Shown: positions 2,939-17,614, counted from the stretch's first letter. The stretch is 64,000 nucleotides of DNA from Patescibacteria group bacterium (GCA_041662625.1 JBAZSB010000002.1:12024-76023); one strand, 5' to 3'. Translations and numbers: made by a program. Notes: a model not told the origin generated them from the letters alone.

Positions 2939-3541
2939 TCAGACTTCAGCCCGCGTCGGATCCTTCCCTTGTGATCGCAACGGCGGCAACGTCGGTCCTC
3001 CTGAACCAGCCCTGGCCTTCACGGTTGGGTCACCAGCATGTGCCGGCGGCGGAGTGTCCAAAGCAGACGCAACCATTGGCGGCGGCGGGCTTCCGGCCTT
3101 CACCGGGGCACTGGCCATCGCGACCGTAGGCGCAGCCGCGGCTGACTGGAACGCTGAGCCAACCTGGAGCAGAGCCACTTCCTTCAGCGCGCTAAACCAC
3201 CGGAGTACCTGGCCTTTGGGAGAAACCAGATTCTCGTTCAGGTGTCGGATCAGCGTCTCAAAATCCACCGATAACGGCAGATTGGTCGGCAAAAATCCGA
3301 ATCCGTCTTTGGCCCACCCGGGCGGCTGCAACACTTCTGGTCGCCAGCTCTTCTTCGCCTTGGCGGTAGGGACCACTTGGCTCAGCTCGAAGATGGCGAG
3401 AACAAAGCCGCCACCTCTGACCACCAAGACTCCGTCTCCTGCCTGCTTCACTGCGGTAGGGGCCAAGGCTCCTACCTGGCCGTGGTATGTCGACTGCGAC
3501 AACAGTTCGACTGCTCCGTCTATTCGAATCGCATCCATCAT
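2939..3541 (-). CDS. Hypothetical protein with a Pro/Ala-rich C-terminal tail (GC-rich insert)
   Basis: 200-aa ORF with the strong RBS AGGAGGG 7 nt upstream of ATGATG. A globular ~130-aa N-terminus is followed by a low-complexity A/P-rich tail. The opposite-strand ORF 2916..3584 looks like a shadow ORF. Confidence 0.45.
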   Translation of the reverse strand: MMDAIRIDGAVELLSQSTYHGQVGALAPTAVKQAGDGVLVVRGGGFVLAIFELSQVVPTAKAKKSWRPEVLQPPGWAKDGFGFLPTNLPLSVDFETLIRHLNENLVSPKGQVLRWFSALKEVALLQVGSAFQSAAAAPTVAMASAPVKAGSPPPPMVASALDTPPPAHAGDPTVKARAGSGGPTLPPLRSQGKDPTRAEV

Positions 3542-3715
3542 GGTAAACGCCCTCCTATCCTTTCCTTGTTGTCTCCTTCACTAGGAACAACTCAATATTG
3601 GCAAATTTTTGCTTTTTTGTCAATCCCTAATTATATTGACGGCATGCCTAAAATATGTAAAAATTGAATTTATCCCTTGACGCAGCAGCTGGGAACAACC
3701 CATGGAGGGAGAAGT

Positions 3716-4144
3716 ATGCACCAACTCGCAGTAAAACAGCAACCGGATGCATTTGTGGTTGCCATCAACGAGGGAGCACTGAGTCATGGCGCTGAAGCCA
3801 GTGGCACCCTAAAGTGCGTCCAAGTCATGCAAGGCCGACGTCATGTCGACCGCGAAGCAGTGGCCGGCGCGATGTTTCTCTGTGAGGCGGATTTTCGCCC
3901 GCGCGAAACCTTCACGCCCGGAGATGGCACGCCGGTACCGGCAGAAAGTGAGGTCGTCTTTGTCGGCCTGGACAAAGTGCCCAAAAGGCGACTCCCGGAG
4001 AATCCGGGCTTCTATGATGTACATGGCGTCACTTTGTCGACCAATGGCCGAGTTGCCATTACCTTCGGCTCTGAGTCGATATTTGTCCCTGTACCCGCAC
4101 CGCGGAAAGTTTCCCAACATCCAAGCTCCGCAGTCCGAGTCTAG
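3716..4144 (+). CDS. Hypothetical protein (GC-rich insert), divergent from 2939..3541
   Basis: RBS GGAGGGAG lies upstream of the internal ATG at 3716 (MHQLAVKQQ...). A candidate TTGACG-N16-TAAAAA promoter lies upstream and a stem-loop plus T-run terminator follows. Confidence 0.45.
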   Translation: MHQLAVKQQPDAFVVAINEGALSHGAEASGTLKCVQVMQGRRHVDREAVAGAMFLCEADFRPRETFTPGDGTPVPAESEVVFVGLDKVPKRRLPENPGFYDVHGVTLSTNGRVAITFGSESIFVPVPAPRKVSQHPSSAVRV

Positions 4145-4237: not shown

Positions 4238-4313
4238 AAATTGCTGTTAATTTTGGTTACAAAAATAGCCCCCGCCTGGACGAAAGCTAATTAAGATAAA
4301 ATTAATTAAAAAT

Positions 4314-5135
4314 TTAAACCATTTTACCCGCGCAATATTCCTTGAATAACCGCATCAGGGCTTTGGTTTTTTGGCCAACACCACTTGCTACCACCAGTTC
4401 ATCAATTTGTCTGACGGGCATCACATTCAAAGTTGTGGCGGTTAAAAAATATTCATCATAGTCTTTAATTTTAGCCAAAGCAATATCGGCAATTTTTACT
4501 TTCATAATTTTTGGCGCAATTTCTAAAATGATTTTTTGGGTCACTCCTTCTAAAACTTTTTCGTCTGGCGAAGAAATTAAAGTATTACCTTTGATAACAA
4601 AAAAACTGCTTCGCGTGCCGCCGCAGATATTGCCAGATGGGTCAATCAATAAAGCGTCGAGGGCACCATTTTCAACGGCCTGGCCATAAGCCAAATACTG
4701 CATTAATAAATTTTTGGTTTTAGCCATGGGCAAAAACCGCTCCCCAGCATAAGTAATAACTTTAACGCCTTTTTGGTAAAAATTATTCGGGTAAAAAGTC
4801 AGGCCCACTGGAAATAAAAATAAAATCGGCTCGGTTTTGGTTTCCGGACCAATCAGTAAAACCCGAATCAAGGCATTTTCTAATTTATTTTTTTTAATTA
4901 ATTCTTCAGCCCAGTTCACTACAGTTTTAGTTTTAAATGGGTGTTTCAGACCAATAAGCCGGGCTGAGGCAAAAAGCTTTTCGATTTCCAATTCCGGCCA
5001 AAACATCTTCTTGGCCACAACTTTGATATTGGAATAAACGGCAAAGTCAAAAAACAGTGCTTTATTATAAACACTGACAGAAGCTTCCGATGAAGGGATT
5101 AATCGCCCATTTTTTATGACGTATTCAGCTGGCAT
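4314..5135 (-). CDS. Class IV (fold-type IV) PLP aminotransferase (branched-chain / D-amino-acid aminotransferase family)
   Basis: 273 aa with the family fold and length; similarity to BCAT/DAAT/ADC-lyase-type proteins judged by eye (ERFLPMAKTKN region). Confidence 0.65.
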   Translation of the reverse strand: MPAEYVIKNGRLIPSSEASVSVYNKALFFDFAVYSNIKVVAKKMFWPELEIEKLFASARLIGLKHPFKTKTVVNWAEELIKKNKLENALIRVLLIGPETKTEPILFLFPVGLTFYPNNFYQKGVKVITYAGERFLPMAKTKNLLMQYLAYGQAVENGALDALLIDPSGNICGGTRSSFFVIKGNTLISSPDEKVLEGVTQKIILEIAPKIMKVKIADIALAKIKDYDEYFLTATTLNVMPVRQIDELVVASGVGQKTKALMRLFKEYCAGKMV

Positions 5136-5141
5136 AATAAA

Positions 5142-7421
5142 CTATTTTGTAACCAACTTTTTGGCCGGCACACTTTGGCCAAATTTCTTTTCTGGCTGAG
5201 CCGAAGACAATTCATTAAGCCCAGCTTTAGTTGACAGCGAAAAACAGAACTTGGAACCTTTGTCGGCGCCTTCGCTTTCCACCCAAATCCTGCCCCGATG
5301 AGCATCAATAATCATTTTCGCTACGTAAAGCCCCAACCCCACGCCTTCGGTATGAACTCGGAAGCTGCCTTTACCCCGGGAAAATTTGCGGAACAATAAA
5401 GGCACCATGTTTTTTTCCACGCCGCGGCCGGTATCTTTAACGCAAAAAGTAATCAAATCTTTTTGGGGTTCATGCAAAAATGAAACGATAATTTCACCTT
5501 TTTCCGTATATTTAATGGCATTATCAACAAAATTCATCATCACTTCATGAATCTTATTGGGATCAGCGGTGATTTCGGGAGTGGGAACTTTTGGTTTATT
5601 AAATAATAATGTTAGATTTTTGGCTGTAGCGGTATTCTTCAAATTATCAACTACAGTCTGGGCAATATCTTCCAGGCGAACTTTTTTCCAGTCAAATTCC
5701 TGCCGGCCTGATTCAATCCGCGAAATATCAAGCAGATTTTCCACCAGTCCAATCAGCCGTTCGTTGGAAGCATAAACTTTTTCTAAATTCGCCATGATGG
5801 TCGGCGAAACCGGACCAAAAGATCCTTCACGCATCATCGAGATATAACCTTTAATCACAGTCAAAGGCGTGCGCAGCTGATGCGAAGCAATGGAAATAAA
5901 TTCAGACTTGGCCTGATCCAGCTGGCGCAGCTCCTGATTAGCTCTGCGCAACTGGGCAGTTTTACGCCGGACTTCTTCCTCCAATTTAACATTGAAATCT
6001 TTCAACTCATCATAAAGCCGGGCGTTTTCAATAGCAATACCCGCTTGACCAGAAATAAGTTTTAAGACATTTAAATCCTGACGGTTATAGGGATCACCGG
6101 ATTTTTTCGTACCAAAGGCAATTATCCCGATTAGCTGCTCTTTGACATACAGAGGAATAATCAAGGCAATATCGTTTTGATAAAGCGACAAAAGCAATTT
6201 GGCATCAACCGGCTGGAATTCGCCATTCTCATACCGCGTTTTCATTTCATCAATAACTAAAATACCTTTAATATTCTTTAATTCCTGGTTTAAAATTTTA
6301 ACGACATTGGGATAATTAGCCAATTTTTCGGCTTCCAGCGGCACGAAACCTTCCTGATAAAAAATTTCCAACTTGTTTTTTTTATTCAAAAGCACAACCC
6401 CGATTTTTTCACAGTGTAAGGACTCAACCAAAGTTTTGGCAATAGAAGCCAAAAGATTATGTAAATCCAAAATTGAAGAAGTAACTTCGGCAATCTGGGC
6501 CAACAAAATATCAGGGTTATATGACTTTTTATAAAGAAAGCGGTCAGTGATTCCTTCAATAGACCGGCGCAATGGCTGATAAGTAACAGAAACTAAAATT
6601 CCAACAATCAAACCAGAGATTAGATTTGATTTAAAGCCAAGAATGTCCTGAAAAAAAGTGGCGATTACGCCAGAAATAATGGCAAAGGTGATAGTAATAA
6701 CCAGAACAAAAAAACCAAAAGCTAGAGAACGGAAAACAACCAAACGAATATCCATTAAACGATAACGGGTAATGGCATAAGCCACAAAAACTACCATTAT
6801 AATTGTTCCAGTTGGACCTACCCAATTATATTTCGTGGTAAAAAAGAACAGAATTAAATTAGTGATTACGGCAATAATTGTCGAGGCTATTGTCCCCAAA
6901 AACAAATACCATAATTGTAAACGTGAAGTGCCCGAAGATTTTAAAAATTTTGTAACTAAATTAGCAAACGCCCAAGCCATGAATATAAAGGTAACAACTG
7001 AATGAATGTAATATCCCCATCCCACTCTAGCATCTATCTCACCATTACTATGTACAACCGCATCAGCAATAATAGAATGGGGAATTAAAGAAATAGTCCA
7101 TATTATAATTGGAGGTAAAAATAAAATTAGTTTAATTAGTTTGCTCTTGGGAAATTCACCTTTAGGGAAAACAAAAGAAAAATATAAAAAGAAGACAATT
7201 GTAAAATTGACTGCAAAATATACAAATTGTCCCCAAAAATAAACTGTTGCAAGTGTGGCCATCCTAAAAAAAGCTATACCAAAGCACCAAGCCGCAATAC
7301 CAAGAATGGTAATAGCAAAAAGAATATTAGACTTGCTTTTCTTATTTCTTATATAAACAAAAAAAGACAAAAATAAATTTATTACTCCTACAACTAATAA
7401 AATTATATTGCTATAATGCAT
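5142..7421 (-). CDS. Sensor histidine kinase: N-terminal 7TM sensor domain - GAF - HisKA - HATPase_c
   Basis: 759 aa with ~7 N-terminal TM helices, a central GAF-like region, the H-box SIASHQLRTPLTVIKGY, N/G1/G2 boxes (DNAIKYT, DTGRGV, GVGLGL) and a coiled-coil linker. Confidence 0.85.
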   Translation of the reverse strand: MHYSNIILLVVGVINLFLSFFVYIRNKKSKSNILFAITILGIAAWCFGIAFFRMATLATVYFWGQFVYFAVNFTIVFFLYFSFVFPKGEFPKSKLIKLILFLPPIIIWTISLIPHSIIADAVVHSNGEIDARVGWGYYIHSVVTFIFMAWAFANLVTKFLKSSGTSRLQLWYLFLGTIASTIIAVITNLILFFFTTKYNWVGPTGTIIMVVFVAYAITRYRLMDIRLVVFRSLAFGFFVLVITITFAIISGVIATFFQDILGFKSNLISGLIVGILVSVTYQPLRRSIEGITDRFLYKKSYNPDILLAQIAEVTSSILDLHNLLASIAKTLVESLHCEKIGVVLLNKKNKLEIFYQEGFVPLEAEKLANYPNVVKILNQELKNIKGILVIDEMKTRYENGEFQPVDAKLLLSLYQNDIALIIPLYVKEQLIGIIAFGTKKSGDPYNRQDLNVLKLISGQAGIAIENARLYDELKDFNVKLEEEVRRKTAQLRRANQELRQLDQAKSEFISIASHQLRTPLTVIKGYISMMREGSFGPVSPTIMANLEKVYASNERLIGLVENLLDISRIESGRQEFDWKKVRLEDIAQTVVDNLKNTATAKNLTLLFNKPKVPTPEITADPNKIHEVMMNFVDNAIKYTEKGEIIVSFLHEPQKDLITFCVKDTGRGVEKNMVPLLFRKFSRGKGSFRVHTEGVGLGLYVAKMIIDAHRGRIWVESEGADKGSKFCFSLSTKAGLNELSSAQPEKKFGQSVPAKKLVTK

Positions 7422-8148
7422 TCAATTTCTGAAAAACTTTAAAAATAAATTGATTTCTAAATATTAATCTCCCAGAATTTCCTCTCTTGAAAAACAATTG
7501 ATTATTAAAAATTTTATTACAATATGGCACTACCTCTTCAGATAAATAATAAATCGGCCAAACTGGATCTTTATTATCCTTAAAATAATTGCTCAGCACA
7601 CTCTTACAATAAACTTGTTTGAAATCTTTAATAAAATGAAAAGGAAATTTTAATTTTTCAAGCTTCAGCCTTAAAGAATCTTTGATAAACGAGTAACCAC
7701 CATATATATTATTTTCTAAAGCATAATTCATTACAGTATATGTCAATCCTAATAAAACTAAATGTCGAGGTAAAAACGATTTTTCATCATAGCGCTCCAC
7801 GATTAATCGACCGAGTTCAGCCCTTTTATTTCTAGGAATTTTGGAAATTTCTAATGGCTCTTGGAATTGAAAACAATCTTTCTCTGTCGGCAAATATTCA
7901 TCTCGGATTAATCTCACGGTACCAATAATCCTATCATCAATTTTAGCTATAAAATAAACACTCCGGCCATCATCATAGTCATCAACTTCTTTCTCTTCTT
8001 GATTTCTAATAATATAGCTACGTTCTAAATAAATCCTATATCTAAATTTATACATCTCAACCAGCTCCTCATTATGATCTGGCATGCCAAAATAAATTGT
8101 CTTTTCATTCTTATTTATTCTTAAGCTGATCTCGTTTAATACTTTCAT
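7411..8148 (-). CDS. GNAT-fold N-acyl amino acid synthase / autoinducer-synthase-like acyltransferase (Acetyltransf_5-like)
   Basis: 245 aa with YKFRYRIYLERSYI...DDYDD...YFIAKIDDRIIGTVRLI...ELGRLIV, which matches the NAS/LuxI-like GNAT core pattern. Overlaps the upstream methyltransferase by 38 nt; alternative start at 8085. Confidence 0.5.
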   Translation of the reverse strand: MKVLNEISLRINKNEKTIYFGMPDHNEELVEMYKFRYRIYLERSYIIRNQEEKEVDDYDDGRSVYFIAKIDDRIIGTVRLIRDEYLPTEKDCFQFQEPLEISKIPRNKRAELGRLIVERYDEKSFLPRHLVLLGLTYTVMNYALENNIYGGYSFIKDSLRLKLEKLKFPFHFIKDFKQVYCKSVLSNYFKDNKDPVWPIYYLSEEVVPYCNKIFNNQLFFKRGNSGRLIFRNQFIFKVFQKLNAL

Positions 8149-8854
8149 AATCTCTTGGCTTTATCGCTGAATTTAATATTGCCTGACCGGCATAGACTAA
8201 TTTATTCTCTGAAACTTCGACGAAACCATTACGAATGAGCAATTCTTTTTGTTCATTATCCTTCATTAAATGACCCGCTCCTTCATTTTTTTTGATCTTA
8301 GAATTGTAGTAAAACATCTTAACGGTAGGAACGATCATTTTAAAAACTTTTAAAATTAAACACCAAAAACCTATCTTTTTAATATCTTTTTTAAAATGAT
8401 CTTTATAAATATTCACTGGGTTCCAACCTTCTCGGACATTTGAGATAACAATTTTTCCACCTGGTTTTAAAATTCTGTAAAACTCCTTAAAGACTTTATC
8501 TCTATCTCCAGGGGCTAAAGTATAAATAACATTGTTTGAAACTATCTTATCAAAATAATCATCTGAAAATGACAAAGGCTTAGCTAAGTCATGAAATATA
8601 ATTCCAATTTCTTGATCTTTTACTCTAAGTTGCCTTAAACCTTCTTCGCTATTATCTAAGGCGACCACATTCGCCCCTCTTTGTTTTAATCTTACTGCTA
8701 AATTGCCTGTTCCAGCCCCAGCATCTAAGACTAAATCTCCTTTATTAACTACAGATTCTTTGATCAGTTCTTCCATTAATTCTTGGTAAGGAATAACAAT
8801 GTTCAAGATATCGTAGGTTTTAAAATACTGCTGCCAGAATTCTGCATCCAACAT
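8111..8854 (-). CDS. Class I SAM-dependent methyltransferase
   Basis: 247 aa with motif I VLDAGAGTGNLAVRL and motif post-I/II (VVALDNSE, IVSNNVIY). Confidence 0.8.
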   Translation of the reverse strand: MLDAEFWQQYFKTYDILNIVIPYQELMEELIKESVVNKGDLVLDAGAGTGNLAVRLKQRGANVVALDNSEEGLRQLRVKDQEIGIIFHDLAKPLSFSDDYFDKIVSNNVIYTLAPGDRDKVFKEFYRILKPGGKIVISNVREGWNPVNIYKDHFKKDIKKIGFWCLILKVFKMIVPTVKMFYYNSKIKKNEGAGHLMKDNEQKELLIRNGFVEVSENKLVYAGQAILNSAIKPRDYESIKRDQLKNK

Positions 8855-8859
8855 ATAAC

Positions 8860-9534
8860 TTAATCCTTCTTATAAATAAACCTGACCAAAAGAATTATCA
8901 TTGGTAAAGAAAAATATGGTCCTAACCAATATGGTCCGAGTTGCAAAAAAAATAAAGGGGCCAAAGCGGCAAAAAATGAGGCAAAAATTCCAATTATTGC
9001 CGCAGCAGTCATCATATAAGTCAATTGCGTTCTGATAAATCCCTGACTTATTTTGTATTTCTGGAATAAAGTATAAAAAGCCAGAATAACATAAAAATAG
9101 AAATGAATATTAAAGTATGTAATGCCCAGCCGACCCAATAAGTAAGTATTATTTGAGGGCCTTAAGATAATTTCTTTAACCCAGATGCCCGGTATTATTG
9201 TTACTAGAATCATAACAACAATACTTATTCCGATTAACAAAACCTGCCAAGATTTTAAAATTTTACTTTGATAAGGAAAATAAATGGAAAGAAAAAAGAA
9301 AGGAATTACTAACATTGCTCCTGACCCATTTTGTACCCAGGTCCAAATCCAGGCTGTCTGCACGGTTTGCGCTTCCCGAAAAAGCGCCATGCCCAGCGTC
9401 CAAGTACCTACCAAAAAAACCGTTATGGCAAAAGTGATATTAATTTTATTTTTTGGATTCCTTAGCCAGACCAAAAGTGCTAAACCGATATTGAGTCCGG
9501 CGACAATAATTAATCCAATATTTGTCCAGTACAT
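8860..9534 (-). CDS. Stand-alone 7TM membrane protein paralogous to the N-terminal sensor domain of the adjacent histidine kinase
   Basis: 224 aa with 6-7 TM helices. Its N-terminus MYWTNIGLIIVAGLNIGLALLVWLRNPKNKINITFAITVFLVGTWTLGMALFREA aligns with the kinase N-terminus MHYSNIILLVVGVINLFLSFFVYIRNKKSKSNILFAITILGIAAWCFGIAFFRMA. Confidence 0.6.
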   Translation of the reverse strand: MYWTNIGLIIVAGLNIGLALLVWLRNPKNKINITFAITVFLVGTWTLGMALFREAQTVQTAWIWTWVQNGSGAMLVIPFFFLSIYFPYQSKILKSWQVLLIGISIVVMILVTIIPGIWVKEIILRPSNNTYLLGRLGITYFNIHFYFYVILAFYTLFQKYKISQGFIRTQLTYMMTAAAIIGIFASFFAALAPLFFLQLGPYWLGPYFSLPMIILLVRFIYKKD

Positions 9535-9714
9535 AAATTTTTAAAACCTCATTTTAATCATGTAATCTTAGATTCACCAATAAAAATAAGTCCAACCTAA
9601 TTTTAATTATACCACAAAACCCGCTGTTTTACATAACCAAATACCTATGTTAACCAAAGTCCTTCTGATTAACATATGTTAACCTACTTTCCCGTAGTTA
9701 ACAAAGAAAAAAGC

Positions 9715-9762
9715 CCCCTTTCCTGCTGTCAGGCAAAAAAGAGGGTTTAGGTTTGATCACAA
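9715..9762 (-). terminator. Rho-independent terminator downstream of the giant CHAP protein gene
   Basis: On the minus strand: hairpin CCTGACAGCAGG followed by GGGGGCTTTTTTCTTT. Confidence 0.5.
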
Positions 9763-9778: not shown

Positions 9779-12700
9779 TTACGGCCCCAGATCCCGGTAC
9801 TTCAGCGAGTAGCTGCAACTGCTGCCCACGGAGTAGGCCCGGATGCGGAGGTAATACCAGCCGGTACTGTTTGGTTTATAGGTGAAGCTGAACTGAAGAT
9901 TACCACCGCTGTCATCGTTGTAGGCAACGCGGACAGTGCCGGCAGAATTGGAGTACAGCTCACCGTAGTCATCGCCAATGCCGCCAGTTGTGTTGAAATT
10001 GTAGCGGCGGCCGCTTACCAGATACACTCTGAACCAGTCGTAGCGATCGGCGCTCGACAAGGTGTGGGGTCCGTGGGCCTGTTCCGTAGCCGTCGGGTTA
10101 TTCAACACTGTGGAACCGGAAACAATGTTGTCAGCCGGATCCCAAGCATCATTGGCAGGCGGTGGCGGTATGACGGCCAAATCCCGGTACTTCAGCGAGT
10201 AGCTACAATTACTACCTACTGAGGAGGCCCGGATACGGAGGTAATACCAGCCGCTGACTGTCGGCGCATAGGTAAAACTGAACTGCAGGTTACCACCACT
10301 GTCGTCATTGTAAGCGACGCGAGTGGTACCCGTTGCATTGGAGTACAACTCGGCGTAATCATTACCGGTCCCGCCAGTTGTGTTGAAATTGTAGCGACGG
10401 CCGCTTACCAGATACACCCTGAACCAGTCGTAGCGATCCATATTGGAAAGCGTATGTGGTCCATGGTTCTGCTCTGCAGTGGTCGGGTTGTTTAGCACTG
10501 TGGCGCTGGAGACAATCCCGTCAGCCGGATCCCAGGCGTCGATAATAGGTGTTGGAATAGTAGTAATATTCGACTCCAGCACCGTACCATCAACTTTATC
10601 CTGCAGGATAATGAACACTTGGGGTGGTGGCGCTTGGCCTAAGGGCACAGCAAACCAAATCCTGGTCAGGTCAGAGGCTTTACCAAGAGCACAGAAGCCG
10701 TAGATCCGACGTCGACTGCCGTCTGGTTTTGCCTCATAGATCTCAACCCAGGTTCGAGCGGCACTGGTGTTAAGGCCGCAAGTCACACAGTAGGCTGAAC
10801 TGAAAATCCGGTCAGGATATTCAGCCCAGTTACTGATTGACAAGAGATAGCGGGTCCAGTTACCACTGGAGGTGCTGTATTCTTCACTGCCAATGATGGT
10901 GAGCTGAGGAATTGGAACCAACTCCAAAGGCGAAATCACCTCAAAGGTAACGCCTCCTTCATTGTTGCTTTCATCCTCCTCGCTCACCTCGCTGTCACAG
11001 TCAGCATAAGCGCGCCAAGTGAAAATCCCGGAGCTGTCACAATGATCCAGATCAAAAATCACTTCCGCTGTCTGGCCAGAAGCCAGGGCCGGCAGGCGTT
11101 GCTTCAGGAAAAAATTGTTCCAGGTCAAGCCAACATTGAAAGCTGGCGCATCAACCGGACCAATATTTCCTGCCACAATAGTTACCTTGATCGGATCACC
11201 AGTCCAGGGATCAAGAGGATCGACTGAACAGTTCATGATGACGCAGTCAGCTCGCCGCGGTGGCAGGACTGTCACTGAAGCGCTTGCGGAGTTGTCGCCT
11301 TCGTTGCTTTCGGCCACAACATTGCCACTGTCAACGACCGCAGTCACCGTCTGTGTCCCTTCAGCTGTCAGATTGAAATTGACACTGAAAGGCACACTGC
11401 CACCCGCGGGAATCGCCGGCAGGTCAACAGTTGCTGTCTGCCCGCTGAAACTGATGGCCAGTTGGCAGACGCCAGAGGCCTCATTGCCACTGTTAGACAT
11501 TACACCCGAAACCGTGGCTGTTCCGCCAACTCGCAGTTCAGCCGGGCTGACTGAAAGGTTTGCAAGTGTCAGGTTAGGTTGAGCCGGCGGCGGCAAAGCT
11601 TGGATGATTGTCGATTCAGAGTTATCACCTTCGTTATACTCAGCAATAACCCCGGTTGAATCAACATAAGCATCCACCTTATAGCTGCCTTCGGCCTGTA
11701 TCCCGAGGTTGAAGGTGTGGTAATACACTCCGCCGTGAGACAAGCCGTCGATCTCAATGGCTTGACTGCTCTGGCCGGCAATGCCGACCGTCAGCACAAA
11801 CGGCGTATTGATGTTCACGTCGCCATCATTAATGATCCCAACCTGAATGCAAAGAGGATCACCAGTATGAACTTCGGCTGTTGCCAGTTCAAGTGATACA
11901 AACTTCAACTGGGCTTTTAGATCGGCTTCGTTAATAACCTTGAAACCGACTTTGACTTGGCAACCTTCAGCCGCCTGATTGATGACGTGCCAAACGTCGT
12001 TAATCCGAACGCAGGCAACCAGATAGTAGTCACCGGGTTCAGTCGAGACGTAGCTGCTGCCGACACTGCCGCTTTTCGTCTGACCCGGTTGTAAAGTTAC
12101 GGGCGTCGACATGTAGCTGGAGAAATCAACCCAGACGTTTTCGGGCAACCGGTAGGGGAAAAGCGACGGGCCTTGGTAGGTCACCACTTGGTCAGTCGGA
12201 TTTTCCACGGTGTAAGTTATCCTGGGACAAACATAGGGCAAATACGGCCCAGTGCTATCCTCGGTTAACCCAGCGACCAGCCTAAGCGGCGCTTCGGGAA
12301 AAGGCGGTTGAGGCGGTGGTTCGGGGTCAGGCAGCTTTTCCACGACAGTCACGGTCACTCTCTCTGACTGAATCGACCGGTCGTCGTAAAGCTCAATCCA
12401 TGTTTCTGCCGTACCGATGTTATTGGCAATGATGTAGCCATTGTCACCGGAGATGACAAAGACACTTGGGCTAGACGAAATGAAAAGCACTTGCACCCCA
12501 GTCATCTCATTGCCGTACTGGTCAAACACTTGAGCCGTGGCCCAGCCGTCCGTGGCATACTGCCAAGTAGTTTGCGTCAGATTGATCCGCAACGTTGTTG
12601 GCGTGGGTGCCGGTGTTGGCGGGGGCGGGGGTGTAGCTTCGGTTGTCACTGTCACCTCGTTGCTCCAACCAAAAACCAGCTCGCTGGCCGTAACTGCTGC

Positions 12701-14176
12701 CAGCTGATAGGTGCAGCTATGGCTTGGCTCCAATGGATAATCAGTCCACTGAGTAAAGCCACTGACCAGTTTGGCAATCTTTACCCCGTCACGAAACAGC
12801 CAGAGAAATGGCGCATACGGGTAGGCCGTGTTTTGCCACTGGAGGAACGCCGAGTTGTAGCCATCAGCAGTACCTTGCAGGGTAAAGCTGCCGGGATTTC
12901 CCGGGCCAGTAATGGTCACGATATTGGAGACATCAAGCGCGCCAGTACTATTGGACATGGCAAAGACTTGATATTGCCGTGTGCTGCCTGTTGGTAGGCC
13001 TGCTTCAGTGAATTCCCGAAGTGTGGTCTGGCCGATTTCAGTGCCGTTGGCAAACACGGCGTAGTAGTCGCATGTTGGACCACCTTCAATCCAAATAGTG
13101 TTGTGGTTTTCTGACATCGGTTTGCCGGTCAGAGTTAGGGCACTGAATTCACCGGTTGGCTCAAACACTTCAACCAGTGTACCGTCCAGACGGTGAAGTT
13201 CTACGCTGCCTGATTTGCAGTACCCGTTTTGGAAACACTGCTGGCCGTTAATGAAGTCACTGGTCGGACAGCCTAACACTGTTCCATCGTCCATCGGCAT
13301 ATCCGGACCATAGCGCTGGCAACCGCGAGTGTTGTCCCAACGACCGTAGCGGTAGAACTCCCAATACTTGCCGGGGATCAGGTAGGCCTGACTGCCAAAA
13401 AGCGGATCATAGATGATGATCGACTCTTCACCTCGGGCGTTGCGGAAGTTCTGGCAGAGGTAGCGGAACGGAGCCCAGTTATGGACAAAGATTCCGTCAC
13501 CGTCATCGATTGGCCAACCTACGCCATCCAAACCACCGTGGCGGTTGTAGCAGTTATTGATTTGTCGATCAATCGCTTGACCATCAGCAAACCGACCAAT
13601 GACCGAAAAACCAGGATAGTGTAACCAGCCTTTGACGAAGTAGTTAGTACTAAGTCGTTCTCCCGGCTCTACTTTCCAAGTGCCATCAGCGTTCTGACTC
13701 ATTGGCAACAGACGGAATGGCTTGGTGGAATTATTGATGTTTTGTTCAAACACCTCAATTCCATCCCTCATCACCCGTGAAACAATACCGACGTGGCCAG
13801 AACCACTATCGCAGGATGTCCAACCGTTATTCCACCAAATGATAAAGTCGCCAATCTGGGGCGGTACCACACTGCTATCGTTGGAAACAGCATGGTAACC
13901 CAACCTCTCCGGCAACCGCAACCACATATTGGCTGCACATCCGACTTCGTAGTCAATCACCTTATGGTACGCGGCAGCGAATCTCTTGGCCAAGTTAACA
14001 CACTGGTATTCCGCTTGGCTGGCCGTACAAGGCTTCTCGGTGCAGTCACCATTAGAATACGCGGTGACTCCCATGAAAGAGCCAATTTCGCGTCCGTAGT
14101 CCGGACCACAGTCGTTCGGGCACTGACCTGACGCCACTGTCGCCACAAACATAACCACACAAAATATCGTTCTCAT
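9779..14176 (-). CDS. Giant secreted cell-wall hydrolase-like surface protein: signal peptide - CHAP domain - Ig-like/CARDB repeats - Pro-rich linkers - two C-terminal PPC (pre-peptidase C-terminal) domains
   Basis: Start moved to MRTIFCVVMFVATVASG (RBS GGAGGT 9 nt upstream). The CHAP motif has a Cys near YQCVNLAKRF and a His at SGSGHVGIV. NEGDNSxST repeats are CARDB-like, linked by PPPPTPAPTPT. The two C-terminal ~130-aa units (AWDPAD...RYDWFRVYL...YNDDSGGN...YYLRIRA) are PPC-like. GC is ~57% in an AT-rich backbone. Confidence 0.75.
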   Translation of the reverse strand: MRTIFCVVMFVATVASGQCPNDCGPDYGREIGSFMGVTAYSNGDCTEKPCTASQAEYQCVNLAKRFAAAYHKVIDYEVGCAANMWLRLPERLGYHAVSNDSSVVPPQIGDFIIWWNNGWTSCDSGSGHVGIVSRVMRDGIEVFEQNINNSTKPFRLLPMSQNADGTWKVEPGERLSTNYFVKGWLHYPGFSVIGRFADGQAIDRQINNCYNRHGGLDGVGWPIDDGDGIFVHNWAPFRYLCQNFRNARGEESIIIYDPLFGSQAYLIPGKYWEFYRYGRWDNTRGCQRYGPDMPMDDGTVLGCPTSDFINGQQCFQNGYCKSGSVELHRLDGTLVEVFEPTGEFSALTLTGKPMSENHNTIWIEGGPTCDYYAVFANGTEIGQTTLREFTEAGLPTGSTRQYQVFAMSNSTGALDVSNIVTITGPGNPGSFTLQGTADGYNSAFLQWQNTAYPYAPFLWLFRDGVKIAKLVSGFTQWTDYPLEPSHSCTYQLAAVTASELVFGWSNEVTVTTEATPPPPPTPAPTPTTLRINLTQTTWQYATDGWATAQVFDQYGNEMTGVQVLFISSSPSVFVISGDNGYIIANNIGTAETWIELYDDRSIQSERVTVTVVEKLPDPEPPPQPPFPEAPLRLVAGLTEDSTGPYLPYVCPRITYTVENPTDQVVTYQGPSLFPYRLPENVWVDFSSYMSTPVTLQPGQTKSGSVGSSYVSTEPGDYYLVACVRINDVWHVINQAAEGCQVKVGFKVINEADLKAQLKFVSLELATAEVHTGDPLCIQVGIINDGDVNINTPFVLTVGIAGQSSQAIEIDGLSHGGVYYHTFNLGIQAEGSYKVDAYVDSTGVIAEYNEGDNSESTIIQALPPPAQPNLTLANLSVSPAELRVGGTATVSGVMSNSGNEASGVCQLAISFSGQTATVDLPAIPAGGSVPFSVNFNLTAEGTQTVTAVVDSGNVVAESNEGDNSASASVTVLPPRRADCVIMNCSVDPLDPWTGDPIKVTIVAGNIGPVDAPAFNVGLTWNNFFLKQRLPALASGQTAEVIFDLDHCDSSGIFTWRAYADCDSEVSEEDESNNEGGVTFEVISPLELVPIPQLTIIGSEEYSTSSGNWTRYLLSISNWAEYPDRIFSSAYCVTCGLNTSAARTWVEIYEAKPDGSRRRIYGFCALGKASDLTRIWFAVPLGQAPPPQVFIILQDKVDGTVLESNITTIPTPIIDAWDPADGIVSSATVLNNPTTAEQNHGPHTLSNMDRYDWFRVYLVSGRRYNFNTTGGTGNDYAELYSNATGTTRVAYNDDSGGNLQFSFTYAPTVSGWYYLRIRASSVGSNCSYSLKYRDLAVIPPPPANDAWDPADNIVSGSTVLNNPTATEQAHGPHTLSSADRYDWFRVYLVSGRRYNFNTTGGIGDDYGELYSNSAGTVRVAYNDDSGGNLQFSFTYKPNSTGWYYLRIRAYSVGSSCSYSLKYRDLGP
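9790..10565. repeat. Tandem duplication of ~390 bp (2 units, ~88% identical) encoding the two PPC domains
   Basis: 9790-10175 versus 10180-10565 share long identical runs, for example cccggtacttcagcgagtagct...ggaggtaataccagcc...gccagttgtgttgaaattgtagcg.cggccgcttaccagatacac.ctgaaccagtcgtagcgatc. Confidence 0.85.
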
Positions 14177-14231
14177 TTCTCGATACCTCCATATTGTCAA
14201 AGGTCTATGGTATTTCTCTTCTACTCACATC

Positions 14232-14262
14232 GTAGAAAAGGGAGCTTTTACAGAAAGCTCCT
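14232..14262 (-). terminator. Rho-independent terminator for the lipoprotein gene
   Basis: On the minus strand: GGAGCTTTCTGTAAAAGCTCC followed by CTTTTCT. Confidence 0.55.
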
Positions 14263-14340
14263 TAAAAAAATCAACATAGAACTTAATCTCTTTAAGGAGA
14301 TCTCTGGCGCTATGTTGATTATGGTCTTAGAATTTTAATT

Positions 14341-15030
14341 TTACTTCGTCGATAAAAACTTAAAACTGGATAAAATTTCGTAATAAGTTGGCAAAAACCT
14401 ACTATTTGAATCCAAATGCTCTGCTAATACAAAAACTATTTTATCATTATTCATTAAACAAAGATTTTTTTTGATAAATCTTTTATCGTTATCCATAATA
14501 TAATTAATTGAAAAAACCTTTTCACCATTAATATCCTCAAATCCTTTATCTAAAATGTTCAAATTATTATATTTATCATTCCAAATTGCATCAGAATATA
14601 ATATTAAATCTGTATCACACCATTGCTTATTGTTTTGGCCGGCATGACCAAGATCATTATCATCAGCTAAAAGAAAATGAAATTCCATATAAATTTCATC
14701 TTCCGGGACAAATACACTATTGCCGCTAGGTTCATAACGAGAAGCGAGTTGAATAATTGATCCCCCAGCATATAATTCCCAACGAGGGGGATACTTAAAC
14801 TCAAACCCATATTCCTCATTCCAATAAGTTTTCCAGTTACTCGTGTCTATTGCTTTAGTAGTTGTGGCAGTGTTGGTATTTACATTTTGATCTATCGGCT
14901 GATTCGTATTTTGATTTACATTCTGGTTCTGATTAACTACCGGATTCGGCTTTTTCAGGCACGCCGAAACAGCCAGGCTTAAGCCAGCTAAAAGGGCAAT
15001 AATTGCGAGTTTTTGGGTTAGTTTTTTCAT
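14341..15030 (-). CDS. Putative lipoprotein with an Asn/Gln-rich low-complexity region
   Basis: Signal peptide with lipobox-like LAVSAC, then NQNQNVNQNTNQPIDQNVNTN, then a globular domain. Confidence 0.45.
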   Translation of the reverse strand: MKKLTQKLAIIALLAGLSLAVSACLKKPNPVVNQNQNVNQNTNQPIDQNVNTNTATTTKAIDTSNWKTYWNEEYGFEFKYPPRWELYAGGSIIQLASRYEPSGNSVFVPEDEIYMEFHFLLADDNDLGHAGQNNKQWCDTDLILYSDAIWNDKYNNLNILDKGFEDINGEKVFSINYIMDNDKRFIKKNLCLMNNDKIVFVLAEHLDSNSRFLPTYYEILSSFKFLSTK

Positions 15031-15131
15031 ACTTTTTTGGTAAAAAATAAAGCGCTTGGGGCGCTATATTGAAACTCTTTGATTCTATTCTCATTTTATC
15101 ACTCCTAAAAACCGTGTCAATAGCAGTTATT

Positions 15132-16892: not shown

Positions 16893-16900
16893 AAAGATAA

Positions 16901-17614
16901 CTAGACAAAATTAATATAATCCCGCCAATACTCATATAATGCTCTGGTGGCTAGTAAATCACCGACATTGTATTTGGCAATGTCTAGAAATTTCTTTTCT
17001 TTAAAAAGCTTTCCGACATCATCGCCGGTAATGCCAGAAGCTTTCGGACTGGCAATGCCAAACGCCCGGCTCCAAAGATGCAAATTGCCTTTTTTCCTGG
17101 CGGCGCCGTAAAAAGTCAACTGGTCTAATAAATCAATGTGCCGCGCGCCGAATTTCTGGCTGGATAAATAACGGTTGGACATTAAATCTTTGGTCGGTTT
17201 AATTTTGTGAACAGCCGAGCGGATCATTAAAAAAGGCGCATCAAAACCGCGGCCGTTGAAACTGACAAAATTTTGGTAATTAGCCGCTCCCTGCCAAAAA
17301 TTTTGCAACATTTCCGCCTCAGTCATCGGTTTAAATTTAAATCCATTTTCTTCAAATTCCGCCAAGCTCTGCCCGGGCGCCTGAAAATAAATTGCTCCTT
17401 GGTTCTTTTCATAGTCCAAAATTCCAATTACCGCGATCTCGCCAGTCAGCGGTGAAAACCCCAGCCAATTTTTTAAATCAGTTAAATTGGCCTGATATTC
17501 ATTCTCATCTTTGGCTTCTTTCCTGATCCAATTAGTTAAAGAACTTTGGGTGGCTTCGTCCAAACTATCAAAATCCTCGCCAACAGTTTCTAAGTCAAAA
17601 ATTAGAGTAGACAT
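16901..17614 (-). CDS. RNase H-like 3'-5' exonuclease (PolB-exonuclease-like, YprB/MrfB-type)
   Basis: N-terminal Exo I motif IFDLETVG plus later acidic/His motifs (FNGRGFDAPFL, YNVGDL); ~237 aa as expected for this family. Confidence 0.6.
   Translation of the reverse strand: MSTLIFDLETVGEDFDSLDEATQSSLTNWIRKEAKDENEYQANLTDLKNWLGFSPLTGEIAVIGILDYEKNQGAIYFQAPGQSLAEFEENGFKFKPMTEAEMLQNFWQGAANYQNFVSFNGRGFDAPFLMIRSAVHKIKPTKDLMSNRYLSSQKFGARHIDLLDQLTFYGAARKKGNLHLWSRAFGIASPKASGITGDDVGKLFKEKKFLDIAKYNVGDLLATRALYEYWRDYINFV

What the first reader, a model, noticed from the sequence alone, without database searches (positions are those of the whole stretch)
4314..9534. Compact 5-gene operon pairing an N-acyl-amino-acid-synthase-like GNAT and a SAM methyltransferase with a 7TM-sensor histidine kinase and a stand-alone paralog of its 7TM domain
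Five minus-strand genes are separated by -38 to +6 nt, so they are probably co-transcribed: a 7TM membrane protein, a SAM-dependent methyltransferase, a GNAT with the N-acyl amino acid synthase / LuxI-like core (YKFRYRIY...DDYDD...IIGTVRLI...ELGRLIV), a 7TM-GAF-HisKA-HATPase kinase, and a class IV (D-amino-acid/branched-chain) aminotransferase. The first 55 residues of the small 7TM protein align residue-by-residue with the kinase N-terminus, suggesting a duplicated ligand-binding module. The arrangement (acyl-amino-acid synthase plus modifying methyltransferase and aminotransferase, with a membrane sensor kinase and a decoy/co-receptor copy of its sensor domain) looks like a self-contained lipid-like signal production-and-sensing cassette. 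No response regulator is adjacent. This combination is not a described quorum-sensing architecture.
Basis: partly seen in the sequence, partly recalled or inferred. Interest (0 to 1): 0.7.

Follow-up and report, generated by a model that had tools for sequence, protein, structure and literature searches.

The report
Swappable signal-maker plus sensor-kinase cassette
In a tiny uncultured (Patescibacteria) bacterium, two enzymes predicted to make a methylated fatty-amide molecule are fused by operon structure to the membrane sensor of a histidine kinase, and comparison with relatives shows that enzymes and sensor domain are exchanged together as one cassette while the rest of the kinase stays put, which is the genetic signature of a matched signal/receptor pair.

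Summary
The five minus-strand genes exist as described: 7TM protein, SAM methyltransferase (MT), LuxI/FeeM-type GNAT, 7TM-GAF histidine kinase (HK) and class IV aminotransferase. Spacing runs from -38 to +6 nt, and terminator-like hairpins bracket the unit. The host is a Patescibacteria (CPR) MAG.

Only MT, GNAT and the 7TM-HK are conserved together in relatives, and MT-GNAT fusion proteins exist in both orders. The aminotransferase is lineage-specific. The stand-alone 7TM paralog is real (28% identity over 224 aa, E 5e-17; dN/dS 0.115). It follows the species tree rather than the enzyme cassette, so a ligand-matched decoy role is unlikely.

The main new result concerns window 6765-8854 (MT, GNAT, HK sensor aa 1-219). 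In a close relative this block is replaced by an unrelated block (CqsA/BioF-like synthase, ICMT methyltransferase, different sensor). The flanks, including the HK core, remain 80-85% identical in DNA. Across 15 kinases, sensor/core identity is about 1.07 for same-cassette pairs and about 0.45 for different-cassette pairs. The cassette also has anomalously low GC.

This supports a matched product/sensor module resembling agr and comQXP pherotype loci. LuxI-homolog/kinase adjacency in CPR was already published in 2020. The product and the response regulator remain unknown.

The parts
9714..9745 (-). Terminator-like hairpin (13 bp stem plus T run) ending the upstream CHAP/CARDB gene. It marks the upstream boundary of the operon.
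9606..9614 (-). TGnTATAAT extended -10-like motif about 70 nt upstream of the first start codon. It is a candidate operon promoter, read by eye. The -35 is poor and the consensus scan did not call it.
   Evidence: Sequence. Not supported, so this is an inference only.
8860..9534 (-). Stand-alone HisKA_7TM membrane protein (224 aa), a paralog of the kinase sensor. It lies outside the swapped cassette and is under purifying selection.
   Evidence: Pfam PF16927, E 6e-8. 28% identity to HK aa 1-211, E 5e-17. A family of 28 proteins, all 220-231 aa. AF2 model is a 7-helix bundle, pLDDT 89.6. dN/dS 0.115 against L018.
8111..8854 (-). Cytoplasmic class I SAM-dependent methyltransferase (247 aa). It overlaps the GNAT gene by 38 nt.
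   Evidence: Methyltransf_11/25. No TM segment. Immediately upstream of the GNAT in almost all relatives. Fused to the GNAT in P0139, P0151 and P0200.
7411..8148 (-). LuxI/FeeM-superfamily N-acyltransferase (245 aa). It overlaps the kinase gene by 11 nt.
6765..7421 (-). Sensor part of the histidine kinase (aa 1-219, seven TM helices, HisKA_7TM). It belongs to the swapped cassette.
   Evidence: 26% identity to the L018 sensor against 82% for the core. GC3 is 0.237 against 0.397 in the core.
5142..6764 (-). Conserved kinase core (aa 220-759). It starts at the YRLMDIR junction motif and contains at least one further hydrophobic segment (aa 235-253; probably two TM helices by eye), GAF, the HisKA H-box (SHQLRTPL at aa 513) and HATPase_c.
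   Evidence: 80% DNA identity to L018 starting at window 6764.
6765..8854 (.). The exchangeable cassette as a whole (MT + GNAT + sensor domain). It is a low-GC block with no DNA homology to the orthologous locus L018.
   Evidence: One search gives the boundaries. One search gives GC 0.306, rank 4 of 310 among 2.09 kb windows of the 64 kb window.
4314..5135 (-). Class IV (D-amino-acid / branched-chain) aminotransferase. It is co-transcribed here but is not part of the conserved module.
   Evidence: Aminotran_4, E 1.7e-33. All NCBIfam equivalog scores are below cut-off. Absent from L001-L008 and L011-L017, present in L018/L019.
4266..4289 (-). Terminator-like hairpin 25 nt after the aminotransferase stop codon. 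It marks the downstream boundary of the operon.

Best explanation
The locus is a small-molecule production-and-sensing module of a Patescibacteria (CPR) bacterium.

Proposed mechanism. Two soluble enzymes, a LuxI/FeeM-type N-acyltransferase and a SAM methyltransferase, act on one metabolite. The product is most likely a methylated N-acyl amine or N-acyl amino acid, for example an N-acyl amino acid methyl ester or a related amphiphile. This lipophilic product partitions into the membrane. There it is recognised by the seven-helix HisKA_7TM domain of the kinase translated from the same mRNA. The kinase core (GAF-DHp-CA) then phosphorylates a response regulator encoded elsewhere. A candidate is a 128-aa single-domain receiver about 7.5 kb downstream, just beyond the window.

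Evolutionary unit. MT + GNAT + sensor domain (window 6765-8854) is an exchangeable cassette. At orthologous loci, unrelated biosynthetic cassettes, each with its own sensor domain, are recombined onto the same conserved kinase core at a conserved YRLMDIR junction. This resembles the pherotype polymorphism of agr and comQXP loci.

What is shown: gene content, fold class, conservation of the trio, the fusions, the cassette swap, sensor/cassette co-variation, and the compositional break.

What is inferred: that the enzymes' product is the sensor's ligand, the chemistry of the product, that it acts between cells, and the identity of the regulator.
For: (1) Conservation. MT-GNAT-7TM-HK are adjacent and co-oriented in 11 of 13 independent relative loci where the contig permits. 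L014 has three inserted genes between GNAT and HK. In L007 the HK is divergent, 2.8 kb away.

(2) Fusions. GNAT-MT (P0139, P0151), MT-GNAT (P0200) and GNAT-alpha-oxoamine synthase (P0175) fusion proteins exist.

(3) Coupling. The junctions overlap by 38 and 11 nt. GNAT and MT have no TM segment. The HK has 7 TM helices plus at least one further hydrophobic segment.

(4) Swap. Compared with the close relative L018, DNA identity is 85% over the stand-alone 7TM gene and 80% from HK aa 220 through the aminotransferase. The outer flanks are 77-89% identical. There is no homology across MT + GNAT + sensor. L018 carries instead a 7TM paralog, a BioF/Kbl/CqsA-family synthase, a 253-aa unknown protein, an ICMT methyltransferase and a different sensor.

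(5) Other cassettes. Other orthologous kinase cores (45-82% identity), several with the same downstream 528-aa gene, are preceded by further cassettes. These include an acyl-reductase-like protein plus MT, a synthase plus SDR, a GNAT plus a PS-decarboxylase-like protein, pyruvoyl Arg or His decarboxylases, PlsC plus HAD, and an unknown 539-aa protein.

(6) Co-variation. In 15 full-length kinases, same-cassette pairs (n=22) have a sensor/core identity ratio of 1.07 on average. Different-cassette pairs (n=83) average 0.45, and their sensors are 18-36% identical even when the core is 82% identical.

(7) Composition. The cassette has GC 0.306 and GC3 0.24-0.27. The kinase core has GC 0.400 and GC3 0.397, so GC3 steps inside the kinase gene. 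The cassette ranks 4th lowest of 310 windows. L018 shows the same pattern.

(8) Fold. The closest solved folds to the GNAT are signal synthases and FeeM. Eight LuxI-invariant positions are invariant in the family.

(9) Independent report. Bernard et al. 2020 independently flagged the orthologous Yonathbacteria pair. They found that the kinase N-terminus matches a CqsS sensory-domain HMM at 2.3e-10.
Against: There is no chemistry, and no ligand-binding or phosphotransfer data.

No acyl carrier protein or acyl-activating enzyme is present in the window. CPR bacteria often lack fatty-acid synthesis (own knowledge), so the acyl donor is unclear. Only L013 and L016 carry an AMP-binding enzyme nearby.

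No response regulator is adjacent in any locus. The nearest one is a single-domain receiver with no output domain.

The co-variation analysis rests on 15 kinases whose pairs are not independent. Sensor identity between distant same-type loci (GNAT about 45% identical, kinases without GAF) also falls to about 28%.

Co-variation would equally fit sensing of a membrane-resident product or of a substrate. Several alternative cassettes contain classical lipid-metabolism families (PS decarboxylase, PlsC, PEMT/ICMT, SPT-like).
Confidence: 0.5

Rival explanations
1. Membrane-lipid remodelling with feedback control. The GNAT and MT would make a structural aminolipid, such as an ornithine-, lysine- or glycine-lipid or a ceramide-like N-acyl lipid, possibly N-methylated. 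The 7TM kinase would monitor membrane composition. The product would be a membrane constituent and not an intercellular signal.
For: The alternative cassettes contain families typical of lipid synthesis: SPT/BioF-like alpha-oxoamine synthase plus SDR reductase, a PS-decarboxylase-like protein, PlsC acyltransferase, PEMT/ICMT, and an acyl-reductase-like NAD_binding_4 protein. A GNAT::alpha-oxoamine-synthase fusion recalls bacterial ceramide synthesis (own knowledge). The GNAT also hits Acetyltransf_5, the OlsB family (family assignment from own knowledge). An AMP-binding acyl-activating enzyme lies next to the cassette in L013 and L016.
Against: Close relatives (kinase core 82% identical) carry entirely unrelated enzyme sets at the same locus. 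This is unusual for essential structural lipids and typical of social or recognition traits. The nearest solved folds are signal synthases and a secreted-metabolite synthase. Methylation recurs in cassettes A, B and D and would neutralise and mobilise a small amphiphile.
Confidence: 0.2
2. A conventional AHL quorum-sensing synthase, as in the NCBI annotation 'acyl-homoserine-lactone synthase'. The GNAT would make an acyl-homoserine lactone from SAM. The kinase would be a LuxN-like AHL receptor, and the MT would be incidental.
For: Pfam Autoind_synth scores above its gathering cut-off (32.4 against 24), and the L016 ortholog scores 53 bits. PDB profile hits are only to AHL synthases (RpaI, BjaI, LasI, MesI). 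LuxI-invariant positions are conserved, with F to Y and W to Y changes. The published interpretation is in PMC7567580.
Confidence: 0.12
3. A sense-and-modify (detoxification or scavenging) operon. The 7TM sensor would detect an exogenous amine or lipid, for example from the host. The GNAT and MT would acylate and methylate it, so the sensor would match the substrate and not the product.
For: Sensor/cassette co-variation fits substrate sensing equally well. GNATs and methyltransferases are common modifying enzymes (own knowledge). CPR bacteria depend on host metabolites (own knowledge).
Against: The GNAT is of the long-chain acyl LuxI/FeeM type and not an acetyl-CoA resistance GNAT. The alternative cassettes are biosynthetic: alpha-oxoamine synthases and pyruvoyl decarboxylases generate amines. 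There is no transporter or efflux gene in the operon.
Confidence: 0.1
4. There is no functional link. The genes would merely be packed tightly in a small genome, and the kinase would sense something unrelated.
For: CPR genomes are compact, and the co-transcribed aminotransferase shows that unrelated genes can sit in the same operon.
Against: The trio is conserved across at least 13 divergent genomes (GNAT identity down to 42-45%). The genes overlap, fusion proteins exist, and the enzymes and the sensor domain are replaced jointly with a breakpoint inside the kinase gene.
Confidence: 0.05

Closest known systems
CPR 'LuxI homolog / putative sensory kinase' pairs (Bernard et al. 2020, mSystems, PMC7567580)
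   Same: It is the same protein family and the same adjacency. Their Table S4 entry 18 (OHA82508.1 / OHA82507.1, Yonathbacteria RIFCSPLOWO2_01_FULL_43_27) is my locus L005/L011. Its GNAT is 45% identical to the window protein. They also list 51 CqsA homologs next to kinases with a CqsS-like sensor.
   Different: The paper does not mention a methyltransferase (0 occurrences). In the passages retrieved by the term searches of its text and supplements (the paper was not read in full), it does not mention MT-GNAT fusions, stand-alone 7TM paralogs, or the fact that the LuxI-like and CqsA-like sets are alternative cassettes on one orthologous kinase core with co-swapped sensor domains.
agr (Staphylococcus) and comQXP (Bacillus) pherotype loci (own knowledge)
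   Same: A hypervariable block contains the signal-production gene(s) plus the N-terminal membrane sensor of the histidine kinase. It is flanked by a conserved kinase domain, and the breakpoint lies inside the kinase gene.
   Different: Those signals are modified peptides, and the variants are alleles of the same genes. Here the cassettes encode unrelated small-molecule enzyme families, there is no peptide precursor or AgrB/ComQ homolog, and no adjacent response regulator.
Synthase plus membrane-kinase lipid-signal systems: LuxM/LuxN, CqsA/CqsS, LqsA/LqsS, PhcB/PhcS (own knowledge)
   Same: A cytoplasmic synthase of a hydrophobic signal is encoded next to a polytopic histidine kinase that binds the signal within its TM domain. 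PhcB is a SAM methyltransferase that makes a fatty-acid methyl ester. CqsA is an alpha-oxoamine synthase, like the one in the alternative cassette in L018.
   Different: The sensor domain family differs (HisKA_7TM). LuxN gives only a non-significant hit (E 0.56). The GNAT plus MT enzyme pair is not used by any of these systems. There is no linked regulator or Hpt protein.
N-acyl amino acid synthases (FeeM/NasY) linked to PEP-CTERM/exosortase systems (Craig, Cherry & Brady 2011, cited via PMC7293339; NCBIfam TIGR03694; PrsK TIGR02916)
   Same: The best NCBIfam hit of the GNAT is the exosortase-associated acyltransferase. The next-nearest homologs outside CPR carry that annotation (28-31% identity). 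Kinase aa 17-474 aligns collinearly with PrsK, which has the same multi-TM plus GAF architecture (E 6e-5).
   Different: Both hits are far below the family cut-offs (53 against 112 bits; 22 against 300 bits). No PEP-CTERM or exosortase genes are nearby. In the one proteobacterial example examined, the synthases sit next to a TPR protein with no kinase within 8 kb.
N-acyl alanine methyl esters (NAMEs) of Roseovarius tolerans (PMC4582587, PMC11580390)
   Same: These natural products have exactly the chemistry a NAS-like GNAT plus a methyltransferase would give, and they are structural analogues of AHLs.
   Different: They come from a different phylum, and their synthase genes are unknown. The link to this locus is purely a chemical inference.

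Membership tests
LuxI-type AHL synthase (PF00765) | Sequence match to the family model above the curated threshold | tested here: inconclusive
   Pfam Autoind_synth scores 32.4 bits against a cut-off of 24, which is met. FeeM scores higher (43.2). The NCBIfam AHL-synthase equivalogs score 16-20 bits against cut-offs of 250-292, which is not met.
LuxI-type AHL synthase (PF00765) | LuxI fold and conserved residues (LasI R23, F27, W33, D44, D47, R70, E101, S103, R104) | tested here: met
LuxI-type AHL synthase (PF00765) | Uses SAM as amine donor and releases an acyl-homoserine lactone | not testable with these tools
   Requires enzymology or LC-MS.
LuxI-type AHL synthase (PF00765) | Cognate LuxR-type cytoplasmic receptor | tested here: not met
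   None of the genes within about 5 kb on either side of the operon that were scanned has an Autoind_bind/LuxR-type domain. The linked receptor candidate is a membrane kinase. The whole genome was not searched.
N-acyl amino acid synthase (FeeM, PF21926 / TIGR03694) | Sequence match above the curated threshold | tested here: inconclusive
N-acyl amino acid synthase (FeeM, PF21926 / TIGR03694) | PEP-CTERM/exosortase genomic context (for the TIGR03694 subfamily) | tested here: not met
   No exosortase or PEP-CTERM genes occur in the neighbourhoods examined.
HisKA_7TM sensor histidine kinases (PF16927) | N-terminal 7TM domain match plus an intact DHp/CA catalytic core | tested here: met
   PF16927 E 1.4e-18 over aa 7-225. 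HisKA 3.5e-17 and HATPase_c 2.1e-23. The H-box motif SHQLRTPL is at aa 513, and the N- and G-box-like motifs DNAIKYT, DTGRGV and GVGLGL are present at aa 633, 663 and 693. Seven hydrophobic segments lie in aa 6-218.
Pherotype-type signal/receptor locus (agr / comQXP logic) | Variable block = signal-production genes plus kinase sensor domain; conserved kinase core; breakpoint within the kinase gene | tested here: met
Pherotype-type signal/receptor locus (agr / comQXP logic) | Each sensor responds specifically to the product of its own cassette; adjacent cognate response regulator; autoinduction | not testable with these tools
   No regulator is adjacent in any locus. Ligand specificity needs experiments.
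Class IV aminotransferase as pathway member | Co-conservation with the GNAT/MT cassette | tested here: not met
   No tblastn hit in L001-L008. Absent from L011-L017. Present only in L018/L019, which lack the GNAT and MT.

The most novel reading that the evidence does not exclude
Patescibacteria carry a modular pherotype locus of a new type. A conserved histidine-kinase core accepts, by recombination at a conserved YRLMDIR junction, interchangeable cassettes. Each cassette consists of an unrelated small-molecule synthase set (LuxI/FeeM GNAT + MT; CqsA-like synthase + ICMT; reductase + MT; decarboxylases; others) and its own cognate 7TM sensor. Closely related episymbionts would therefore speak chemically different lipid or amine 'languages' for kin or host recognition. 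[quoted passage not shown]
Probability: 0.35. Interest if true: 0.85.

Novelty: new variant of a known kind. Interest (0 to 1): 0.62.

Why it matters
CPR/Patescibacteria are ultra-small, mostly uncultured episymbionts, and how they recognise hosts and kin is an open question. A locus where biosynthetic genes and the ligand-binding part of a kinase are exchanged as one unit gives a concrete, testable handle on this. The two enzymes can be expressed, the product identified, and its effect on the kinase tested.

The finding also offers natural domain-swap experiments that show where a 7TM sensor can be grafted onto a kinase core. [quoted passage not shown] Finally, it corrects the current database name 'acyl-homoserine-lactone synthase', which is not established.

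Tried and rejected
(1) I suspected that the high-GC stretches flanking the operon were rRNA. Rfam and ARAGORN found nothing in the window. The stretches are protein-coding (CHAP/CARDB gene and small Ala/Pro-rich ORFs).

(2) I searched the window for a response regulator, a second kinase, ACP and acyl-activating enzymes by phmmer and tblastn. None was found.

(3) The locus scan with the 31-sequence GNAT alignment failed because no conserved stretch was available. I repeated it with 9 sequences.

(4) The idea that the stand-alone 7TM protein is a decaying relic of an earlier sensor is rejected. Its dN/dS is 0.115, similar to the kinase core, and it belongs to a family of constant length.

(5) The idea that it is a transporter or enzyme gained no support. 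Foldseek gave only weak, non-significant GPCR-like 7-helix-bundle matches (best E 3.8e-3).

(6) I tested whether the PEP-CTERM N-acyl amino acid synthases share the kinase adjacency. In the one example checked they do not.

(7) I tried to discriminate AHL synthase from N-acyl amino acid synthase by sequence and fold. This is not possible.

(8) The specificity of the MT could not be resolved. The nearest solved relatives are a mix of N-, O- and C-methyltransferases.

(9) The afdb50 fold library was unavailable. The Craig et al. 2011 paper is not held.

Full report
**1. Observation**

| Window coordinates | Length | Pfam result |
|---|---|---|
| 8860-9534 | 224 aa | HisKA_7TM only, E 6e-8 |
| 8111-8854 | 247 aa | Methyltransf_11/25 |
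| 7411-8148 | 245 aa | FeeM 43 bits, Autoind_synth 32 bits, Acetyltransf_5 24 bits (all above gathering scores) |
| 5142-7421 | 759 aa | HisKA_7TM-GAF-HisKA-HATPase_c |
| 4314-5135 | 273 aa | Aminotran_4 |

- The junctions are +5, -38, -11 and +6 nt.
- The small 7TM protein aligns with the kinase N-terminus over its whole length (28% identity, 224 aa, E 5e-17).
- A 13-bp terminator-like hairpin at 9745-9714 ends the upstream gene. Another at 4289-4266 follows the aminotransferase. The five genes therefore look like one transcription unit.
- MT, GNAT and aminotransferase have no hydrophobic segments.
- The kinase has seven hydrophobic segments in aa 6-218 and another at aa 235-253; by eye the region after the junction probably holds two TM helices. 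It has an H-box motif (SHQLRTPL at aa 513) and N- and G-box-like motifs (DNAIKYT, DTGRGV, GVGLGL).
- The window holds no tRNA, rRNA or Rfam match.
- The rest of the window is ordinary chromosome: rpoB/C, ftsK, purine genes, glyA and a Mur ligase.
- The GNAT is 100% identical to a protein of a Patescibacteria-group MAG on a 172-kb contig.

**2. What is conserved**

The GNAT belongs to a sizeable family that is almost entirely CPR.
- There are about 85 homologs at 39% identity or more, annotated as Parcubacteria, Buchananbacteria, Yonathbacteria, Staskawiczbacteria or Paceibacterota.
- A profile search of 1.84 billion representatives finds 132 clusters at E<=1e-30.
- The next relatives are proteobacterial PEP-CTERM/exosortase-associated N-acyl amino acid synthases, at only 28-31% identity.

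I examined loci from 13 further genomes (L001-L008, L013-L016, L037).
- The MT lies immediately upstream of the GNAT, usually with a 4-nt overlap.
  - The exception is L002, where a radical-SAM/SPASM gene and an unknown gene are inserted.
- A HisKA_7TM kinase follows directly.
  - In L014 three genes intervene, including a pyruvoyl histidine decarboxylase.
  - In L007 the kinase is divergent, 2.8 kb away.
  - In L008 the contig ends before a kinase could be seen.
- The GAF domain is present only in one clade of these kinases.
- Fusion proteins tie the enzymes to one pathway: GNAT-MT (P0139, P0151), MT-GNAT (P0200) and GNAT fused to an alpha-oxoamine synthase (P0175, inside a 7TM-MT-fusion-kinase operon).

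The aminotransferase is absent from every one of these loci. No response regulator is adjacent anywhere, and none is in the window. A 128-aa single-domain receiver lies about 7 kb downstream, after argS, in the window's own genome (L009) and in two relatives.

**3. The cassette swap**

I searched with the stand-alone 7TM protein and then anchored on the kinase core (aa 226-759). This recovered orthologous loci with different content.

The closest is L018/L019. It shares the upstream CHAP/CARDB gene, the stand-alone 7TM gene (86% aa identity), the kinase core, the aminotransferase, the 528-aa gene, the YkuD gene and argS.

| Window segment | L018 segment | DNA identity |
|---|---|---|
| 9536-8855 | 9999-10680 | 85% |
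| 6764-4330 | 14653-17087 | 80% |
| 8854-6765 (MT, GNAT, kinase aa 1-219) | 10681-14652 | no homology |

The non-homologous L018 block encodes another 7TM paralog, a BioF/Kbl/SPT/CqsA-family alpha-oxoamine synthase, a 253-aa unknown protein, an ICMT/PEMT-type membrane methyltransferase and a different 7TM sensor. Per-25-residue identity between the two kinases is 8-44% up to aa 225 and 52-100% afterwards. The switch falls at the motif YRLMDIR (aa 220).

Other orthologous cores (45-82% identical) are preceded by other sets. Three loci (L019, L020, L022/23) keep the 528-aa gene downstream.

| Loci | Genes directly upstream of the kinase |
|---|---|
| L022-24 | NAD_binding_4 acyl-reductase-like protein + UbiE-like MT |
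| L026/31 | alpha-oxoamine synthase + SDR |
| L029 | Acetyltransf_1 GNAT + PS-decarboxylase-like protein |
| L025 | pyruvoyl arginine decarboxylase |
| L028 | pyruvoyl histidine decarboxylase |
| L034 | PlsC + HAD |
| L033, L035 | Shikimate_DH-like protein |
| L017, L030, L032 | 539-aa unknown protein |

In 15 full-length kinases the ratio of sensor identity to core identity depends on cassette type.
- Same-cassette pairs average 1.07 overall (n=22). The ten such pairs listed individually (core identity 50% or more) span 0.99-1.18.
- Different-cassette pairs average 0.45 overall (n=83). The listed pairs span 0.28-0.64.
- The core tree is not congruent with cassette type. The window's core is closest to the CqsA-type L018 (82%), then the HDC-type L028 (70%), and only then GNAT-type loci (about 65%).

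Composition agrees with the swap boundaries.
- Window 6765-8854 has GC 0.306, and its three coding segments (MT, GNAT, HK sensor) have GC3 0.24-0.27. It ranks 4th lowest of 310 windows of 2.09 kb.
- The kinase core has GC 0.400 and GC3 0.397, so GC3 steps inside one gene.
- L018 shows the same pattern (cassette GC 0.307; core GC3 0.482).

**4. The stand-alone 7TM paralog**

- It belongs to a family of proteins of constant size (220-231 aa).
- It occurs in 0-4 tandem copies upstream of cassettes of several types.
- It is under purifying selection: dN/dS 0.115, against 0.124 for the kinase core.
- It folds as a seven-helix bundle (pLDDT 89.6) with no significant match to any solved transporter or enzyme.
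- It is 86% identical in L018 (different cassette) and about 55% identical in L016/L003 (same cassette). It therefore tracks the genome and not the cassette.

It is a real and conserved accessory membrane protein. A role as a decoy for the same ligand is not supported. Other paralogs, such as the 220-aa one in L018, do lie inside the swapped block.

**5. What the enzymes are**

GNAT:
- The model is confident (pLDDT 93, pTM 0.90).
- A family profile hits only AHL synthases in PDB (RpaI 2.4e-4, BjaI, LasI, MesI).
- The invariant family residues R36, Y40, Y45, D56, D59, R79, E111 and R114 align with LasI R23, F27, W33, D44, D47, R70, E101 and R104. The LuxI Ser103 is Gly here.
- Pfam and NCBIfam favour the N-acyl amino acid synthase models, but below the NCBIfam cut-off.
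- The enzyme is therefore a distinct clade of the LuxI/FeeM superfamily. Whether the amine substrate is SAM, an amino acid or an amine cannot be decided in silico.

MT:
- It is a generic class I enzyme. Its nearest solved relatives include phosphoethanolamine and glycine/sarcosine N-methyltransferases and carboxyl methyltransferases.

Kinase N-terminal half:
- It aligns weakly but collinearly with PrsK, the PEP-CTERM system kinase (E 6e-5).

**6. Interpretation**

The enzymes and the sensor domain are replaced together, with a breakpoint inside the kinase gene. Together with the gene overlaps, the fusions and the conservation, this is the pattern expected if the sensor recognises what the adjacent enzymes make. 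It is the pattern known from agr and comQXP pherotypes (own knowledge). The difference here is that the variants are unrelated small-molecule pathways.

I therefore favour a production-and-sensing module whose product is a methylated N-acyl amine or amino acid (confidence about 0.5).

The main rival is that the products are membrane lipids monitored by the kinase. Several cassettes contain lipid-type enzymes. The radical turnover between close relatives argues for a recognition or signalling trait instead.

Still unknown:
- the acyl donor, since there is no ACP or acyl ligase in the window;
- the output regulator;
- whether the molecule acts between cells.

**7. Relation to the literature**

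Bernard et al. 2020 (PMC7567580) reported LuxI homologs in CPR, 18 of them next to a sensory kinase, and 51 CqsA homologs next to kinases with a CqsS-like sensor.
- Their Table S4 includes the Yonathbacteria ortholog of this pair. The basic pairing is therefore published, as an in-silico prediction.
- The paper does not mention a methyltransferase (0 occurrences).
- Searches of the held library on the topics I tried turned up no other paper on this system. In the passages I retrieved from Bernard et al. (the paper was not read in full), the following are not described:
  - the obligatory and sometimes fused methyltransferase;
  - the stand-alone 7TM arrays;
  - the fact that the LuxI-like and CqsA-like sets are alternative cassettes at one locus with co-swapped sensors.

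N-acyl alanine methyl esters are known natural products without known synthase genes (PMC11580390). This makes the GNAT + MT pair a candidate route.

**8. Verdict**

The production-and-sensing core holds. The aminotransferase and the decoy role do not. The claim of an undescribed architecture is only partly right.
- It is a new variant of a known kind of system. Interest is moderate to high because of the cassette-swap evidence and its direct testability.

Noticed in passing
window 9779-14200 (-), 2939-3541 (-), 3677-4144 (+): These genes have strikingly high GC in a 43% GC window. The 1473-aa CHAP+CARDB+PPC surface-type protein has GC 0.53. A 200-aa Ala/Pro-rich ORF has GC 0.61 and no Pfam hit. 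An opposite-strand 155-aa ORF is also GC-rich. The CHAP/CARDB gene is conserved in L018 (77% DNA identity). The cause of the GC contrast is unexplained.
   Followed up: partly
L009 10795-10967; L019 16709-17095; L020 17374-17781: A 128-aa single-domain response-regulator receiver lies directly downstream of argS in three related genomes, 6-7.5 kb downstream of the kinase on the same strand. It is the only receiver near the orphan kinase and a candidate partner, but it has no output domain.
   Followed up: partly
L017 8001-13937 (also L030, L032): Three tandem stand-alone HisKA_7TM genes (225, 229 and 241 aa) are followed by a 539-aa protein with no Pfam or NCBIfam hit and then the orthologous kinase. 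This is a cassette type whose 'enzyme' is completely unknown.
   Followed up: no
L037 378-6579: An operon reads 7TM (225 aa) - MT (240 aa) - GNAT::alpha-oxoamine-synthase fusion (617 aa) - 927-aa HisKA_7TM kinase. It combines the two synthase types that are alternatives elsewhere, which suggests N-acyl aminoketone (ceramide-like) chemistry in some members.
   Followed up: partly
L002 5771-7111; L007 5798-6907 (-); L013 13870-14988 (-): Radical-SAM enzymes recur in or near GNAT-type cassettes. In L002 a radical-SAM/SPASM gene is inserted between MT and GNAT, and L007 has one near the cassette. L013 has a radical-SAM gene about 3 kb beyond the kinase, on the opposite strand. Their role is unknown.
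   Followed up: no
L013 5480-7219; L016 4988-6721: A 577-579-aa AMP-binding (acyl-activating) enzyme lies just upstream of the MT-GNAT cassette in two relatives. It is a possible supplier of the acyl donor. No homolog is in the window.
   Followed up: partly
L001 (CAZHUO010000044.1) and L004 (JAACEG010000008.1): Two short contigs (8 and 14.5 kb) carry the typical Patescibacteria MT-GNAT-kinase cassette but are deposited in MAGs named Gammaproteobacteria and Lysobacteraceae. These are probably binning errors (inference).
   Followed up: no
L018 7773-8471: The close relative has an HTH_17 + Fic pair and extra small genes inserted between the CHAP/CARDB gene and the 7TM array. The window lacks them, which is another sign that this neighbourhood is recombinationally active.
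   Followed up: no
window 15132-16892 (-): A Pif1/RecD-like SF1B helicase with a C-terminal HTH_40 domain lies upstream of the CHAP/CARDB gene.
   Followed up: no
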